Program-made: the position numbers and the translations under genes
Sequence record: OQ850289
Length of the DNA stretch: 64,000 nucleotides
DNA from: Escherichia phage vB_EcoM_ULIM3
Direction: 5' to 3' (one strand)
Shown here: in pieces, positions 1-20,424 of the stretch
Numbering within the stretch: the stretch's first letter is position 1
Layout: every line of letters begins with the position of its first letter
The notes under the pieces: generated by a model
Databases searched by the model: none
Seen by the model: only the letters and a program-made list of their open reading frames with translations
What the model was told of the DNA's origin: nothing

Positions 1-5276
<5,276 letters not shown>

Positions 5277-13931: not shown

Positions 13932-14537
<606 letters not shown>

Positions 14538-14589
14538 TTAGTTGATTGTTAAGTTGTTTGTAAAGAACCCTCAACAGAAGACTCTTTAG

Positions 14590-14900
14590 AAACTTGGTAG
14601 ATTTTTAACGTGGCTACTACCATCCACCCATACCTCACATCACCATACCATACCATACCATACCATACCATACCTGACCGGACCTAACCAAACTCCACAG
14701 CACCATACATCACATCACACAACCTTATTAAAAGACCCTGTTTAAAGACCCTTTAAAAAGGTAAGTCTCATTTTAATGTAGCTGAGACTAACTACCCATA
14801 CCAAACAGCACCGCACTATGCCTTACCCCACCTCACCGAGCCTCGCCCCACATCACTTAAAAACCCTTTTCAAAGACTCTTAAGGGATGTTGGTGAGTAC
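14590..14900 (-). repeat. non-coding repeat region, second copy of the conserved element plus (CATAC)6 microsatellite
   Basis: No ORF; 14720-14895 near-identical to 13195-13345; pentanucleotide CATAC x6 at 14644-14673. Confidence 0.6.
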
Positions 14901-14954: not shown

Positions 14955-16055
14955 TTACTCATAATCCCTAATAACTAACCCAACAGGGAACTGTAAAGAC
15001 CCCTTACGAGTCATCTTCTGGAACTGAACCGTTAAAGGCTTCCCGATAAACTCTTCAGGATGCTCAGCCAGATACTGCTTTTTCTCATGAGTGGTTTTCC
15101 ATGAGACATCTACAAAGACGTTAGGAAGAGTCTCTACAACGAACTTACCATGACCACGTTTATCAGTCTTTACACCAGTTACTTTAAACTCTTCAGTGTG
15201 CATCTTCTTGTGCTTAATCAAGAAGTATGAACGGTGACAACACTCATAGAAGGAGTCTTCAGAGATTGAACGGTACATTGCACCTTCAAACTTAGCTTCA
15301 ACCCACTTATCATGAGCTTCATCAAATTCTTCCCAAGAATTTACACGGATAGTCTGCACAGGAACAACTCTACAGGTATCCCCAAGCTCAACAATAGGTG
15401 AGTTATCAATAACTTCACGACGCTCAGGCCAAGATTTTGAATTGTCACAGATATCATACCAGTAGAATTTAAGAAGGTGACGGTCTGGATTGTCAGCATT
15501 CTTAATCATAGACACAATATCTTCTAAGTCCCAACCATGAGCATAAATCTCTCCATCAAAGTCTTCAACTTGCGGATGTAATTTAAGCAACAAAAGTAAG
15601 TCTGGTATTAGTTCTGCTGGAACGTTGTAAACAGTATTCTCACGAGAATAAGCTGTGAAACCGACTGAATCAGCATCTCTTGAAATTCTACAACGTACAC
15701 CATCCAGTTTCGGTTGAGCATCAGCAGGGAACTTCAGATACTTTGCATGACTAACCTTTGCAGCATCATGAGCAAGCTGTACACCTACCTTCTCAGTATT
15801 CTGTGCAGACTCTTTTGTGTAAGCATACCCTTTACGGTCAACTTGCTTTTTATACTTAGCAGCAACTTCAAAGAGAGCTTGCTGTTCAGCATTACGCTCA
15901 TTCTTTTTACCGATGTTTTTAGGTTCTGCTGTATACTCTTCAAACATCATCTTGCCATTTTCTTTGCCATAGGTTGTAATAACCTTGTCACCTACAGCAG
16001 TACATGACCAGATGTTAAAAGAGCCATCTTTATTTTGTTTGTACAGTATTGTCAT
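14955..16055 (-). CDS. ATP-dependent DNA ligase
   Basis: KLDGVRC adenylation motif (KxDG), EGAMY and LIKHKK downstream motifs; start set to ATG 16055 (MTILY) with GAGGA SD. Confidence 0.8.
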   Translation of the reverse strand: MTILYKQNKDGSFNIWSCTAVGDKVITTYGKENGKMMFEEYTAEPKNIGKKNERNAEQQALFEVAAKYKKQVDRKGYAYTKESAQNTEKVGVQLAHDAAKVSHAKYLKFPADAQPKLDGVRCRISRDADSVGFTAYSRENTVYNVPAELIPDLLLLLKLHPQVEDFDGEIYAHGWDLEDIVSMIKNADNPDRHLLKFYWYDICDNSKSWPERREVIDNSPIVELGDTCRVVPVQTIRVNSWEEFDEAHDKWVEAKFEGAMYRSISEDSFYECCHRSYFLIKHKKMHTEEFKVTGVKTDKRGHGKFVVETLPNVFVDVSWKTTHEKKQYLAEHPEEFIGKPLTVQFQKMTRKGSLQFPVGLVIRDYE

Positions 16056-16056
16056 T

Positions 16057-16248
16057 TTATTCCTCTGAGTGATACCAAGTATTGCAAGCATTACATGCGT
16101 AAAGCTCTAAATCATTTTTATCTGGTTTATGAAAACAGTTTGCTCCGCAGTGGCAACGAAACGGTTTTCCACCAACTGTCAGGATGAAGGATTGAACCTT
16201 TCCATCAGGAGTTCGTACAGCATTTTTATGCTTATCTTCTTTGTTCAT
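16057..16248 (-). CDS. small zinc-finger protein
   Basis: 63 aa; CHCGANC ... CNACN cysteine pairs. Confidence 0.5.
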   Translation of the reverse strand: MNKEDKHKNAVRTPDGKVQSFILTVGGKPFRCHCGANCFHKPDKNDLELYACNACNTWYHSEE

Positions 16249-16461: not shown

Positions 16462-16719
16462 TCACCCAATAACAGTAGTGTGTGATTGACCATTTTTGCC
16501 ATAGCTATAAGATGTTGTTGTTTGAGAGTTTGGACACCTGACAACAACAATGTCTCTGCTTATGGCATCACCATGTAACTTATAGACTCTGCAATCTTGC
16601 ATCTCTGGTGGGAGGCTATAAGAAGCGTTTTTGTCCTCGTAAGAGGGATTACAGCCAGATAGAAAAATTACTCCAAGTGCAACCATTGCTTTCACACAAC
16701 TCTCAACCTTATTGTTCAC
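16462..16719 (-). CDS. putative lipoprotein
   Basis: 85 aa; signal peptide ending in lipobox-like LSGC. Confidence 0.55.
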   Translation of the reverse strand: MNNKVESCVKAMVALGVIFLSGCNPSYEDKNASYSLPPEMQDCRVYKLHGDAISRDIVVVRCPNSQTTTSYSYGKNGQSHTTVIG

Positions 16720-16851
16720 GATAGTCTACCTCTCTGTATGTTTTTAAATAGTGAGTGATGAGTTCTGGTAATTCACTACGTTTAACGTTTGAACGAAGAA
16801 GTGTCCAGTCAAAACCTTTACCAACCCTTCCCCAGAGACTGTACATTTTCT

Positions 16852-17085
16852 TCATAGCAACTCCAGAATATCAATACGTTCACCTTTGAGTACTCCAGTA
16901 CGGTCTTTTGCAATCTTACCTTCAACAATAAGAATGTGTGCAGACCTTAAAGTGTCACTGTTAAAGGCTTTTACGAACTTGCTAGGCATCACTACAATAC
17001 ACATCTCCTGAATCAACTCTGGAGTATAGCAATTGTCGTGAAGTTGCTGAATAACGTCTGCAAGTGTCATTTTTGATGTCTCCAA
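16852..17085 (-). CDS. small protein, paralogue A
   Basis: 77 aa; shares the motif GKIAKDxTGxLKGERxxIxxLL with 17273-17491. Confidence 0.55.
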   Translation of the reverse strand: METSKMTLADVIQQLHDNCYTPELIQEMCIVVMPSKFVKAFNSDTLRSAHILIVEGKIAKDRTGVLKGERIDILELL

Positions 17086-17276
17086 TACTCAATATCAATA
17101 AGTTCTTGTGCAATGCTTTTCAGATTACCTTTCAAGAAAACCTTCTCAGAACCTGAAAGAGATGAATTGTCAATTAACCTGTTCATTCTCTCAAACAACT
17201 TCTGCTTACGATTCTTGATAGTTTCCTTTGAAGCACCTTTCATCATCGCTGCATGGGTTCTTCCACGGTGGCTCAT
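17067..17276 (-). CDS. small basic protein
   Basis: 69 aa ORF between the two paralogues. Confidence 0.45.
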   Translation of the reverse strand: MSHRGRTHAAMMKGASKETIKNRKQKLFERMNRLIDNSSLSGSEKVFLKGNLKSIAQELIDIEYWRHQK

Positions 17277-17491
17277 AGTAAACTCTCAATATTTACACGC
17301 TCACCTTTCAAGTATCCTGTCTTATCTTTTGCGATTTTGCCTCCAGCGATAAAGATATCTACTCTACGTAGAACTTCAGGGTTTACCTTCAAATTCCTAC
17401 AGCTACTGCAAAGAACAATAAACAGCCCTTCAATCTCTTTTTGAGAGTAACCAGCACATTGCAACTGGACTTCAATTTCTGAAAGTGTCAT
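17273..17491 (-). CDS. small protein, paralogue B
   Basis: 72 aa; C-terminal motif shared with 16852-17085. Confidence 0.55.
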   Translation of the reverse strand: MTLSEIEVQLQCAGYSQKEIEGLFIVLCSSCRNLKVNPEVLRRVDIFIAGGKIAKDKTGYLKGERVNIESLL

Positions 17492-17552
17492 GTGACCTCC
17501 TATACAAGATACAGTATAAGGTACTCTTCCATGAGCACCTTGTCAATACTAA

Positions 17553-20252
17553 TTAGTGTACTTCAAGCCAGCTTTTACCAACCTTACCAGTACCTGTAAC
17601 AAGCGTTTCTTTCTTAAGGCCTAAGTTCTTAGAAGCTTGTCCATAATACCAGTCAGTAACTGCTTTCACTTCTGCCGTCATACTTTCTGGGCATTCCCAA
17701 CTCGTCTCATCGTGATATGCGCAGAGTAAGCGAGCACCAATAGCTGGTTGACGACCATTCAACTTCATCAAACCTTCGTCAATCATACGACGACAAGCAA
17801 GGTTAATTGCCTCATTTTGAATCTGAGCCTCTGAACCCATCAAAAGATAGTTCAATAATTTGTGTGGAGATTTACACCACAACCAAGCTCCAGCAACCTT
17901 TACAAAGCCCCCTTTAGAAATTGCAGCAGTCTTACCAAACACCTCTTCAAGAGCCTTTTTAGTTGCTTTGTAGTCAGCTTCCAAGTCATCTAGTAGCTTC
18001 TTAATTTTAGGCAAACGGATAAAGTAAGTCTGTTTAGTCAGCGCACCTTCCTGAGTAGTCGCAGCTTTAATCGTCTTAGCAAACTTCTCATCACCTGCAC
18101 CGAATAGCAGTGCATAGATACCATTCTTAGCTTTCTTACGACCTTTGCTAATCTCATGAAGAAGATTCTCATCCTGAGTAGCTCGACAAGTCAAGATGTC
18201 CTGCTCATCGTTCAAGCTAAAGTAGATACTGTTCAGTGTATGTGCATCAGTCCCTGAATAGACAACGTACAGGTCATTCTCAGAGTCATAGCGAAGGTAC
18301 TTATCAATCTCTGGGTTTAGGTACTCATCAAAATGTTTGCAGTAATAGCGTCCATCTTCTTGACGAATGAACTCAATCTCTTCTTTACCTTGCGTTACCG
18401 CTTTGGTGAAGTCTTTGTCACCCATAAAGTTACAAAGGAGAACTAGCTGGGCTGAGTTCATGTCTACAGAGACAACGTTAGTACCTTCTTCACAAATCCA
18501 CACTGCCCTCATTGGTTCCCCATAGACAGCAGCACCAGATGGTACGTTTACAATACCATATTGTGTCATACGTCCAGTTGAAGTACCAAACACCATTGCA
18601 CCAGCACTAAGGCGACCATCGGGACGAATCTGGTTCAACCAACCTTTTTCATCATCCTTTGAGTTCTCAATAGTTCTGCGTCGGTGCATCAAAGTATAGT
18701 ACTTAGCAATCTTCTGTCCAAGTTCACCTTCAATCGTATCATAAGATGATTCAGTAAGTTTTGGTGAAGTACGGATTAAGCAAGGCTCAAGCAAATCTGT
18801 GTATTTCTTCACAGACCAGTTATGCTCAATGTACTGGACACCTTCATGTTCAACATAACTTAAACCACATCGTTCCACCATTTCCTGCCACTTAGGATGT
18901 TTTGTAATCATCTTTTTATTGTCTTTGAAACGACAAACTTTGACAGGGCGACCGTCTGAGTCTTTCTTGTAGTTCCAGTCATCTGGAATCCAACCAACTG
19001 ATTTCAAGTAGTCTTTAACAACTGCTACCTGAGTCATACGAGAAACTTCAAACTCAATTGGTGTATATGGTGCATCAATCAAACCTGTGTAGCGACTTGA
19101 CTCAAGTTCAAAGTGGTTAACAACGTGGCTGTTATAGTACTTCACAGTTTTGACTGTTTTTACTGGCTTCCAGTCTTTGCACTTCTTACCAATCTTTGCA
19201 TTCAACTCATTGCAAATTGCACGAGCATCCTTCATTGCTACAAAACCTTCCTTGTACTCTTCACCAGTTACAGAGTTGGTTGGTGTATAGCAATTTCTCT
19301 TTTCAATGTTAAAAATCTTCGTAGTTGGCTTACCAAATGGTTTGATTTCGTATGTCTGCATCTCACCATTACGTACCTGCTGACGATACTTTGTCTTAGG
19401 GTACTTGGTAATTCTTTTCAGTCCATCTGCATGACCAAATGTTTCAACATACTCATTCCAAGCTTTTGCAAACTCTTCTCCAGTGACTTTACCTTTGGTC
19501 TTAATAGTTGGAGGTAGATGTGGTTCAACCTCTGAAGCAAGCTCATTAGTCAACTTGTCAAGTTCCTTTACATGGAACTCCATAAGCTCTTTATCAGCTT
19601 TCCAACCATTGATAGCTTGCTGGCTCATCCAGAAAGATGTCTCTTTAGCTCGCATGTAGGTTTCATAAGTGTCTATGCCACACTTCTTAAGCTTGAGATA
19701 CTCGTTATCAAGTGCCCGTTTAGTTTTGGCGTTAATACGGATATCTTCTACAACACGAGTGAAGATTTCTGCATTCCACACACCCCAATGCTCAATCTCT
19801 GGCTTACGAACACCAACACGAGCACCCCATGCAGCCAAGCCATGAGCACCTTTATAACCCTTTGGAGTTGGTCTATCCATCCACTGAACACGAGACTGGA
19901 TAAGAGAATCCTGAAAGAAATTACTCCACGGCTTACACTTTGGATTATCAAAGTTCCATAAATCAGGTGCAATGTGATTAAAAACCCACCAGTCATAACC
20001 GAGACCGTTATGGATGCAAAGACGTTTCGCCTTTAATGCAAACTCAATACCTTCACGCAAACCACCCTTAATGTACTTGGTGTACTTGTGACCGAGGATA
20101 GGCTCATCTGTAAAAACCCATACAGGTGGCTCTTCATCATCAGATTTATAGTCTGCGAAAGCCATTACGTGCACTTTAGTGAACTCAAGGAGTAAACCAT
20201 CAGTTTCTGTATCACCAACTAAATGTAAGTTTTTAAAATCTACGTTTTCCAT
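17553..20252 (-). CDS. DNA polymerase, family A, with 3'-5' exonuclease domain
   Basis: N-terminal exo motif GDTETDG; motif A (VVSVDMNSAQL), motif B (KxxxYALLFGAG), motif C (YHDE); start moved to ATG 20252 (MENV) with GGGAG SD. Confidence 0.85.
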   Translation of the reverse strand: MENVDFKNLHLVGDTETDGLLLEFTKVHVMAFADYKSDDEEPPVWVFTDEPILGHKYTKYIKGGLREGIEFALKAKRLCIHNGLGYDWWVFNHIAPDLWNFDNPKCKPWSNFFQDSLIQSRVQWMDRPTPKGYKGAHGLAAWGARVGVRKPEIEHWGVWNAEIFTRVVEDIRINAKTKRALDNEYLKLKKCGIDTYETYMRAKETSFWMSQQAINGWKADKELMEFHVKELDKLTNELASEVEPHLPPTIKTKGKVTGEEFAKAWNEYVETFGHADGLKRITKYPKTKYRQQVRNGEMQTYEIKPFGKPTTKIFNIEKRNCYTPTNSVTGEEYKEGFVAMKDARAICNELNAKIGKKCKDWKPVKTVKTVKYYNSHVVNHFELESSRYTGLIDAPYTPIEFEVSRMTQVAVVKDYLKSVGWIPDDWNYKKDSDGRPVKVCRFKDNKKMITKHPKWQEMVERCGLSYVEHEGVQYIEHNWSVKKYTDLLEPCLIRTSPKLTESSYDTIEGELGQKIAKYYTLMHRRRTIENSKDDEKGWLNQIRPDGRLSAGAMVFGTSTGRMTQYGIVNVPSGAAVYGEPMRAVWICEEGTNVVSVDMNSAQLVLLCNFMGDKDFTKAVTQGKEEIEFIRQEDGRYYCKHFDEYLNPEIDKYLRYDSENDLYVVYSGTDAHTLNSIYFSLNDEQDILTCRATQDENLLHEISKGRKKAKNGIYALLFGAGDEKFAKTIKAATTQEGALTKQTYFIRLPKIKKLLDDLEADYKATKKALEEVFGKTAAISKGGFVKVAGAWLWCKSPHKLLNYLLMGSEAQIQNEAINLACRRMIDEGLMKLNGRQPAIGARLLCAYHDETSWECPESMTAEVKAVTDWYYGQASKNLGLKKETLVTGTGKVGKSWLEVH

Positions 20253-20424
20253 TTTTACTCCCTCTAAAATCATTAACCTCATACATTACTGCAAAAAATT
20301 ATAAAAAGCAAGTTGACAATGTACTTGACAAGGTGTTAATCTTTGCGAAGTGGGTTTTTACTTAAAAGGTTACTTAACAGTTTAACTATACAGATACTTT
20401 AAAACTCTTAAAAGATTATTTAAT

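What the first reader, a model, noticed from the sequence alone, without database searches (positions are those of the whole stretch)
16852..17491. Tandem paralogous small proteins separated by a small basic ORF
ORFs 16852-17085 and 17273-17491 share a C-terminal motif GKIAKD(R/K)TG(V/Y)LKGER(I/V)xI(L/E)(E/S)LL but differ N-terminally. Local duplication followed by divergence of small proteins in the replication block is typical of phage genes under host-interaction selection (inhibitors, anti-defence).
Basis: seen in the sequence. Interest (0 to 1): 0.45.

Follow-up and report, generated by a model that had tools for sequence, protein, structure and literature searches.

The report
Two old paralogous small phage genes
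Two 72-residue genes just downstream of the DNA polymerase gene of a Felix O1-like coliphage are real, anciently diverged copies of one small protein family of unknown function; the family is already catalogued and the genes are annotated as hypothetical in hundreds of sequenced relatives, so the finding is correct but fairly ordinary.

Summary

The window is a Felixounavirus, 99.9% identical to phages VpaE1_ev035 and ULIM8. A and B both match PHROG 4230 (unknown function); the middle gene matches PHROG 5180.

The split is old: 54% nucleotide identity, synonymous sites saturated. Both copies are under purifying selection (dN/dS about 0.1), not diversifying selection. About 250 sequenced relatives carry at least one copy between polymerase and ligase: roughly 187 A only, 35 B only, 30 both.

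The family is very narrow: 12 cluster representatives among 1.84 billion proteins. It is not detectable in the Erwinia-infecting sister genus, and phiEco32 gp100 is a remote homologue. The AlphaFold model is confident (pLDDT 90.5) but matches no solved structure.

Function is unknown. My best guess, at low confidence, is a stand-alone protein-binding module that acts through the invariant KDxTGxLKGE hairpin, more likely on a conserved host protein than on the phage replisome.

The parts
17273..17491 (-). Gene B: 72-aa PHROG 4230 member, polymerase-proximal paralogue ('Moogle-type'; closer to the single-copy outgroup homologues)
   Evidence: ORF. phrog_4230 E=4.2e-36 over 1-72/72. Annotated as a hypothetical protein in ULIM8 and VpaE1_ev035. 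dN/dS 0.09. AF2 model pLDDT 90.5 with alpha1-alpha2-beta1-alpha3-beta2-beta3-alpha4. The divergent homologue P0153 hits only B-type copies by tblastn.
17496..17501 (-). AGGAGG Shine-Dalgarno sequence of gene B, 4 nt before its ATG, in the 61-nt polymerase-B spacer
   Evidence: Read from the sequence. No sigma-70-like promoter or terminator passed the scan in this spacer, so B is probably read through from the polymerase transcript.
17067..17276 (-). Middle gene: 69-aa basic (+8, pI 10.3) all-helical protein, PHROG 5180. Its start overlaps the B stop (ATGA) and its stop overlaps the A start (ATGA).
   Evidence: phrog_5180 E=2.3e-46. AF2 pLDDT 85.8, three helices H3-13, H17-36, H42-68. dN/dS 0.07. 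Also found without any PHROG 4230 gene in Erwinia Kolesnikvirus and in T4-like Karamvirus PG7.
16852..17070 (-). Gene A: 72-aa PHROG 4230 member ('Felix-type'; orthologue of Felix O1 ORF93 = Felix01p173).
   Evidence: phrog_4230 E=8.3e-43 over 1-72/72. 219-nt CDS in relatives. dN/dS 0.13. The Felix O1 ORF93 transcript was detected by RT-PCR, maximal at 25 min like the polymerase ORF96 (PMC3185647 Table 3; ORF mapping).
16709..16855 (-). Next coupled gene: 48-aa PHROG 2381 protein whose ATG overlaps the stop of A (ATGA). It ends the run of four translationally coupled small genes.
17553..20282 (-). Family A DNA polymerase (909 aa), the upstream anchor of the variable small-gene island
   Evidence: annotated in relatives.
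14955..16091 (-). ATP-dependent DNA ligase, the downstream anchor of the island (relatives annotate a 1101-nt CDS)

Best explanation
SHOWN. A and B are two anciently diverged paralogues of one small, soluble alpha/beta protein family (PHROG 4230). They lie in the polymerase-to-ligase operon of a Felixounavirus. A run of ATGA overlaps (B, middle gene, A, 48-aa gene) couples their translation. Each is under strong purifying selection. Either copy alone is the normal state in relatives; carrying both is a minority state (about 12%). The basic middle gene is an independent family, not an obligate partner.

INFERRED. Each paralogue works as a stand-alone protein-binding module. Its contact surface is the nearly invariant beta-hairpin plus loop G51-K-I-x-K-D56-x-T58-G59-x-L61-K-G63-E64. 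The more variable N-terminal helical half (alpha1-alpha3) tunes specificity or affinity. The partner is more likely a conserved enterobacterial host protein, engaged during the replication (middle) phase, than a component of the phage replisome. In that view the second copy widens or reinforces the interaction rather than reflecting an arms race.

The three-gene arrangement B-mid-A arose in one of two ways: as the ancestral tandem state, later pruned to B-mid, mid-A or A alone; or by recombination at the shared middle gene between a B-mid genome and a mid-A genome.
For: Paralogy.

Real genes under constraint: dN/dS of 0.07-0.13. The Felix O1 ORF93 transcript was detected by RT-PCR (PMC3185647).

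Architecture classes across 33 loci: pol-B-mid-A, pol-B-mid, pol-mid-A and pol-A, with breakpoints exactly at gene boundaries.

Counts in the phage collection: 65 records carry a B-type copy, 219 an A-type copy, 252-254 any copy, hence about 30-36 carry both.

Conserved hairpin: D56, T58, G59, L61 and G63 are invariant even in 31-48% identical homologues.

Fold: a confident compact model (pLDDT 90.5). I saw no signal peptide or membrane segment on reading the sequence. Net charge is near neutral.

Host-linked rather than replisome-linked distribution: no family member is detectable in the whole genome of Erwinia phage phiEa104 (best E=2.7), although that phage shares the polymerase, ligase and primase-helicase module and even the middle gene. 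A remote homologue exists in the unrelated coliphage phiEco32: gp100, hhalign probability 93%, E=3.5e-7. It is probably the BFVD entry B0FIR2, which Foldseek matched at TM 0.61, probability 0.92; that identification is inferred from the 73-aa length and the hhalign result. The family HMM picks it as the best hit in that genome.

The middle gene is not a partner: it occurs without PHROG 4230 (Kolesnikvirus, Karamvirus PG7), and PHROG 4230 occurs without it (VpaE1, SUSP1/2).
Against: There is no direct functional evidence of any kind: no interaction, phenotype or proteomic data.

Synteny argues the other way. The family sits between polymerase and ligase even in divergent uncultured relatives (L036, L039), as expected for a replication accessory factor.

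Absence from Kolesnikvirus could be loss with functional replacement, or divergence beyond detection.

phiEco32 gp100 lacks the TGxLKGE part of the conserved loop. This weakens the idea that the hairpin is the universal functional site.

Host genus and phage genus are confounded, so 'host-linked' is not cleanly separable from phylogeny.
Confidence: 0.35

Rival explanations
1. Replisome accessory factor. PHROG 4230 proteins bind a phage replication protein (family A polymerase, gp4-like primase-helicase or ligase) and modulate replication. The two paralogues would be sub-functionalised versions.
For: The family always lies between the polymerase and ligase genes, including in divergent relatives: L036 has pol-75aa-P0153-ligase, and L039 has pol-83aa-P0156-...-ligase. 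It is translationally coupled in the polymerase operon. Felix O1 ORF93 peaks at 25 min, together with the polymerase. It is quasi-core under purifying selection.
Against: It is not detectable in Erwinia phage phiEa104, which has the same replication module. The remote homologue phiEco32 gp100 sits in the early region, far from that phage's polymerase. There is no sequence relation to the phage's own primase-helicase. The polymerase-ligase interval is a general dumping ground for swappable small genes, including a lipoprotein, a Zn-ribbon-like protein and HNH endonucleases.
Confidence: 0.3
2. Arms-race anti-defence inhibitors. The duplication and divergence are driven by selection to inhibit variable host defence systems.
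For: The proteins are small and non-structural. They lie in an island whose gene content varies between close relatives. Copy number is variable.
Against: dN/dS is about 0.1, with the putative interface invariant. At least one copy is present in nearly all Felixounavirus, Mooglevirus and Suspvirus genomes, rather than patchily. The split is ancient, not a recent expansion. No similarity to any characterised inhibitor in Pfam, NCBIfam or PDB.
Confidence: 0.12
3. Fragment or mimic of a RecA-fold helicase core. The C-terminal strand-hairpin (DIFI...GKIAKDKTG) would imitate the last beta-hairpin of DnaB/gp4/RecA-type ATPases (the 'l.K.R.tG' motif) and cap or poison an oligomer interface of a host or phage hexameric helicase or of RecA.
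Confidence: 0.05
4. Two-component module with the basic middle protein (toxin-antitoxin-like, or an obligate heteromeric complex B-mid or mid-A).
For: ATGA translational coupling on both sides of the middle gene. B-mid and mid-A pairs are the commonest arrangements.
Against: PHROG 4230 occurs without the middle gene in VpaE1, SUSP1/2 and others. The middle gene occurs without PHROG 4230 in Kolesnikvirus and in the tRNA region of T4-like PG7.
Confidence: 0.05

Closest known systems
PHROG 4230 (phage orthologous group, function unknown)
   Same: Both A and B match the 72-position profile end to end (E=8e-43 and 4e-36). They have the same length, the same motif and the same genomic position as the annotated hypothetical proteins Felix01p173, JH2_060/062, Sf19_gp75, CPT_Moogle37 and Phi87_101.
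   Different: Nothing differs. They are members. The group itself has no assigned function and no Pfam family. At E<=1e-3 the profile search found only 12 of the 50%-identity cluster representatives, out of 1.84 billion representative proteins.
phiEco32 gp100 (phi32_100, 73 aa, Kuravirus early region)
   Same: A remote homologue: hhalign probability 93%, E=3.5e-7 over 55 columns. A BFVD model, probably of this protein (B0FIR2), matches at TM 0.61, probability 0.92. It is the best family-HMM hit in that genome. It is also a small early protein of a virulent coliphage with unknown function.
   Different: Only about 20% identical. It has an 18-residue N-terminal extension. It ends right after the second hairpin strand, so it lacks the TGxLKGE loop and the C-terminal helix. 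It is not adjacent to the polymerase and overlaps phi32_99.
T7 class II small proteins encoded just after the polymerase gene (gp5.5, gp5.7, gp5.9). Analogy from my own knowledge, not tested here.
   Same: Proteins under 100 aa encoded immediately downstream of a family A polymerase gene and co-expressed with replication genes. In T7 they bind conserved host proteins (H-NS, sigma-S RNA polymerase, RecBCD).
   Different: No sequence or fold similarity was found to anything in PDB. A and B are not strongly acidic DNA mimics (net charge -2 and +1). The analogy rests on position and size only.

Membership tests
PHROG 4230 | Full-length significant match to the family profile HMM | tested here: met
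   A: E=8.3e-43, residues 1-72 on profile 1-72/72. B: E=4.2e-36, 1-72 on 1-72/72.
PHROG 4230 | Conserved core motif DI.I..G.I.KD.TG.L.G and N-terminal MT[LI]....QL....Y shared with the other members | tested here: met
   Invariant columns in alignments A2 and A3. Both window proteins carry them.
Tandem paralogues from duplication | Pairwise similarity above chance over a collinear alignment | tested here: met
Tandem paralogues from duplication | The duplication is local and recent (paralogues closer to each other than to homologues elsewhere) | tested here: not met
   A and B are 43% identical. Each is 31-48% identical to single-copy homologues from distant phages. DNA identity is 54% with dS about 1.2, i.e. 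saturated.
Genes under host-interaction (diversifying) selection | Elevated dN/dS among orthologues | tested here: not met
   Median pairwise dN/dS is 0.13 for A (171 pairs) and 0.09 for B (6 pairs); the maximum is 0.46. Site-specific tests were not run.
Known anti-defence or host-inhibitor families | Sequence or fold match to a characterised inhibitor | tested here: not met
RecA-fold / DnaB_C helicase core | Profile match to DnaB_C or RecA-like models, Walker A/B motifs, domain of about 250 aa | tested here: not met
HAD / P-type ATPase phosphorylation motif (DKTGT[LIVM]) | Motif embedded in a Rossmannoid HAD fold with motifs II-IV | tested here: not met
   B carries D56-K-T-G-Y-L. However, the protein is 72 aa with a three-stranded sheet, has no Pfam HAD hit, and the only HAD structures in Foldseek PDB have E of 5.6-9.7. 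I treat this as a chance resemblance.
Toxin-antitoxin-like or obligate pair with the middle gene | Strict co-occurrence of the two families | tested here: not met
   Each family occurs without the other.

The most novel reading that the evidence does not exclude
PHROG 4230 is a new small alpha/beta fold. It would be used by virulent enterobacterial phages of unrelated morphotypes (Felix O1-like myoviruses, phiEco32-like podoviruses) to seize one conserved host protein during the replication phase. Candidates are a RecA-fold ATPase or hexameric helicase, engaged by mimicry of its C-terminal hairpin, or a subunit of host RNA polymerase, on which Felix O1 depends throughout infection and whose temporal reprogramming is unexplained (PMC3185647). 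Paralogues A and B would then address two different targets or target states.
Probability: 0.07. Interest if true: 0.6.

Novelty: new member of a known kind. Interest (0 to 1): 0.25.

Why it matters
As it stands, it matters little. The genes are essentially identical to annotated hypothetical proteins of published phages, and tandem paralogous small genes are commonplace in virulent phages.

The modest value lies elsewhere. The family is quasi-core in a phage group widely used for Salmonella and E. coli biocontrol. It is under strong constraint. It has a confident predicted fold with no solved relative, and it is restricted to phages of Enterobacteriaceae. A cheap deletion and pull-down experiment could therefore uncover a new host take-over or replication-accessory mechanism.

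The locus also gives a clean natural series (A only, B only, both, with or without the middle gene) for testing redundancy between paralogues.

Tried and rejected
(1) Pfam, NCBIfam and PADLOC scans of A, B, the middle gene and neighbours gave nothing meaningful.

(2) A PDB sequence search with the family profile, and with the middle protein, gave only noise.

(4) RecA-fold or helicase-fragment idea. hhalign against the window's primase-helicase gave nothing, so it is kept only as a 5% rival.

(5) Idea that the gene preceding the family member in distant relatives (75-83 aa in L036 and L039, gp089 in phiEa104) is a third, cryptic paralogue. hhalign probability was 0.3%, so this is rejected.

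(6) The exhaustive profile search of 1.84 billion representatives found only 12 proteins, with no bridge to a characterised family.

(7) Literature. No paper mentions phrog_4230. Searches on Felixounavirus or phiEco32 small, early or toxic genes gave nothing specific. The first search was too loose and was wasted. Only the Felix O1 genome paper gave usable transcription timing.

(8) Promoter and terminator scan. There is no convincing promoter in the polymerase-B spacer. A perfect TTGACA at 17546-17541 lacks a usable -10 at 16-18 nt.

(9) The resemblance of DKTGxL to the P-type ATPase/HAD motif was dismissed, because the fold and size are incompatible.

(10) The middle protein's 'GASKETIKNRKQKL' stretch loosely recalls a GerE or sigma region 4 recognition helix. 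No profile support was found, so this stays a lead only.

Full report
WHAT THE WINDOW IS.
The 2.5 kb around the finding is 99.9% identical to Escherichia phage VpaE1_ev035 (LR699048) and 99.8% identical to vB_EcoM_ULIM8 (OQ850290). It is 80-93% identical to about 250 other Felix O1-like phages (Ounavirinae: Felixounavirus, Mooglevirus, Suspvirus). All genes of interest are on the minus strand. They lie inside the early/middle transcription unit that runs from the family A DNA polymerase (17553-20282) to the DNA ligase (14955-16091) and beyond.

THE OBSERVATION.
B is 17273-17491 (72 aa). A was given as 16852-17085 (TTG start, 77 aa). Four things point to the ATG at 17070 as the start of A:
- The TTG is part of a GGAGA ribosome-binding site for that ATG.
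- The ATG overlaps the stop codon of the middle gene (ATGA).
- Every annotated relative has a 219-nt CDS.
- All homologues begin MTLADV.

Both proteins match PHROG 4230 end to end (E=8e-43 and 4e-36). The ORF between them (17067-17276; 69 aa; net +8; pI 10.3) matches PHROG 5180. The next ORF (16709-16855, 48 aa) matches PHROG 2381. The junctions B/mid, mid/A and A/48-aa are all ATGA overlaps, which means translational coupling. B has a strong AGGAGG site. No promoter or terminator is predicted between the polymerase gene and B.

ARE THEY REAL GENES?
Yes. Pairwise Nei-Gojobori dN/dS among orthologues from 33 related loci has these medians: 0.13 for A (171 pairs), 0.09 for B and 0.07 for the middle gene. 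In Felix O1 the A orthologue is ORF93 (Felix01p173) and the middle gene is ORF94. RT-PCR detected the ORF93 transcript, maximal at 25 min, in the same class as the polymerase ORF96 (PMC3185647, Table 3). I found no proteomic evidence.

HOW OLD IS THE DUPLICATION, AND HOW COMMON?
A and B are 54% identical at the DNA level, with synonymous sites saturated (dS about 1.2). Single-copy homologues from divergent uncultured phages (P0152, P0153, P0156, P0158) are 31-48% identical to B and 33-39% identical to A. The A/B split is therefore about as deep as the family itself. B is slightly closer to these outgroups, and P0153 detects only B-type copies by tblastn.

Across 33 loci four architectures occur:
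- pol-B-mid-A: this window, ULIM8, VpaE1_ev035, UAB_Phi87.
- pol-B-mid: Mooglevirus, e.g. Moogle and Sf19.
- pol-mid-A: Felix O1, AYO145A and most Felixounavirus.
- pol-A: VpaE1, SUSP1/2 and others.

Breakpoints fall exactly on gene boundaries. Against AYO145A the window differs by a clean presence or absence of B. Against Sf19 homology stops at the last base of the middle gene.

In the phage collection, 65 records carry a B-type copy and 219 an A-type copy. Between 252 and 254 records carry at least one. That gives about 187 A-only, about 35 B-only and about 30-36 with both. The tandem state is thus a minority configuration. It is either the ancestral tandem that most lineages pruned, or a product of recombination at the shared middle gene between B-mid and mid-A genomes. 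I could not decide between these two.

THE MIDDLE GENE IS NOT A PARTNER.
PHROG 5180 homologues occur in two places without any PHROG 4230 gene. One is Erwinia phages of the genus Kolesnikvirus, where an unrelated helical 73-aa gene follows. The other is the tRNA region of T4-like Karamvirus phages such as PG7. Conversely, many Felixounaviruses have A without the middle gene. The AF2 model of the middle protein is a three-helix bundle or hairpin (pLDDT 85.8).

HOW WIDE IS THE FAMILY?
It is very narrow. The word-indexed searches returned only Ounavirinae-type sequences. An exhaustive profile search of 1.84 billion representative proteins found 12 representatives at E<=1e-3.

In two divergent uncultured relatives the gene is again between polymerase and ligase: L036 has pol-75aa-P0153-ligase, and L039 has pol-83aa-P0156-61aa-lipoprotein-ligase.

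A six-frame scan with the family HMM gave three results:
- exactly two copies in this window;
- none in the complete genome of Erwinia phage phiEa104 (best E=2.7), which has the same polymerase, ligase and primase-helicase module;
- one weak hit in coliphage phiEco32.

The phiEco32 hit is gp100 (phi32_100, 73 aa, early region). Its remote homology is supported by hhalign (probability 93%, E=3.5e-7). A Foldseek match to a 73-aa phiEco32 model in BFVD (B0FIR2; TM 0.61, probability 0.92) is probably the same protein; I inferred that identity from length and from the hhalign result.

STRUCTURE.
AlphaFold2 with a 28-sequence alignment gives a confident compact model of B (pLDDT 90.5, pTM 0.77). The elements are alpha1 (3-12), alpha2 (17-21), beta1 (25-28), alpha3 (38-43), beta2 (46-49), beta3 (52-56), a conserved loop, and alpha4 (68-71).

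The invariant residues (I46, G51, I53, D56, T58, G59, L61, G63) map to the beta2-beta3 hairpin and the following loop. That makes this region the obvious candidate for a functional surface.

WHAT IT MOST LIKELY DOES.
Nothing here establishes function. Weighing the indirect evidence, I favour a stand-alone protein-binding module that acts through the invariant hairpin during the replication phase.

Arguments for a phage-replisome partner: conserved position between polymerase and ligase, co-expression with the polymerase, and quasi-core status.

Arguments for a conserved host partner: the family is undetectable in the Erwinia-infecting sister genus, which has the same replisome. It reappears, remotely, in an unrelated podovirus that shares only the host. 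And the polymerase-ligase interval is a general island of interchangeable small genes, including a lipoprotein, a Zn-ribbon-like protein and HNH endonucleases in relatives.

I give the host-directed binder about 0.35 and the replisome accessory role about 0.30. The helicase-mimic idea and the obligate pair with the middle gene each get about 0.05; the latter is essentially refuted by the independent distributions.

NOVELTY AND SCORE.
The genes are already in GenBank as hypothetical proteins, and the family is catalogued as PHROG 4230. The paralogy and the architecture series do not appear in the papers I could search, but they are unsurprising. The points of mild interest are the apparently new small fold and the host-restricted, quasi-core distribution. 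Interest: 0.25.

Noticed in passing
window 16462-16719 (-): A small ORF (85 aa from GTG; relatives annotate 72-74 aa) with a lipoprotein signal (…VIFLSGC…), matching PHROG 902. Lipoprotein genes also sit between polymerase and ligase in distant relatives: L039 has a 112-aa product with a lipobox (…LALSGC…), and phiEa104 gp083 is annotated 'lipoprotein'. Possibly a superinfection-exclusion or receptor-masking lipoprotein.
   Followed up: partly
window 16057-16248 (-): A 63-aa ORF immediately upstream of the ligase gene with two Cys pairs (CHC…C / C..C), looking like a Zn-ribbon. It is duplicated or variable in some relatives (two s63-like hits in L022, L032 and L034).
   Followed up: no
L003 (VpaE1) 1-1439; L035 (Felix O1) 3288-3791; gaps of about 570 bp between polymerase and the next gene in L012, L016, L017 and others: Homing-endonuclease genes (HNH, endonuclease VII) are inserted at or inside the 3' end of the polymerase gene in several relatives. 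The VpaE1 polymerase is annotated in two pieces. Such elements next to the island may drive its gene-by-gene mosaicism.
   Followed up: no
L042 (Enterobacter phage PG7) 2998-3207; L041 (Erwinia phage phiEa104) 2501-2752, unannotated there: The basic middle gene (PHROG 5180) has 50-59% identical homologues in the tRNA region of T4-like Karamvirus phages and in Kolesnikvirus. In phiEa104 the ORF is not annotated in the record. This is a mobile small gene shared across phage families.
   Followed up: partly
L044 (phiEco32) 14520-14741 (-), phi32_100: A 73-aa early protein of phiEco32 is a remote homologue of the A/B family (hhalign probability 93%). It overlaps phi32_99, which is annotated 'transcriptional regulator, D5-like'. 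It extends the family beyond Ounavirinae.
   Followed up: yes
L036 5774-6001; L039 576-827; L041 1200-1466: A different conserved small family (75-88 aa, with a motif of the type …hIhR/N.I.GL.DT.I.GT…GL.P.EL.FF) occupies the first position after the polymerase gene in divergent Ounavirinae-like phages and in Kolesnikvirus, but not in Felixounavirus. It is unrelated to PHROG 4230 by hhalign.
   Followed up: partly
search results: Records named 'Campylobacter phage A126' and 'Staphylococcus phage' (SA1 is cited in VpaE1 notes) carry this Felix O1-type locus at about 89-90% protein identity. These are probably mislabelled or contaminant Felixounavirus sequences in public databases.
   Followed up: no
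window 17541-17546 (-), directly after the polymerase stop codon: A perfect -35 hexamer TTGACA, but no acceptable -10 at a 16-18 nt spacing in this phage. In AYO145A, which lacks gene B, a sigma-70 promoter is annotated at the equivalent place. The presence or absence of B may therefore change promoter geometry.
   Followed up: partly
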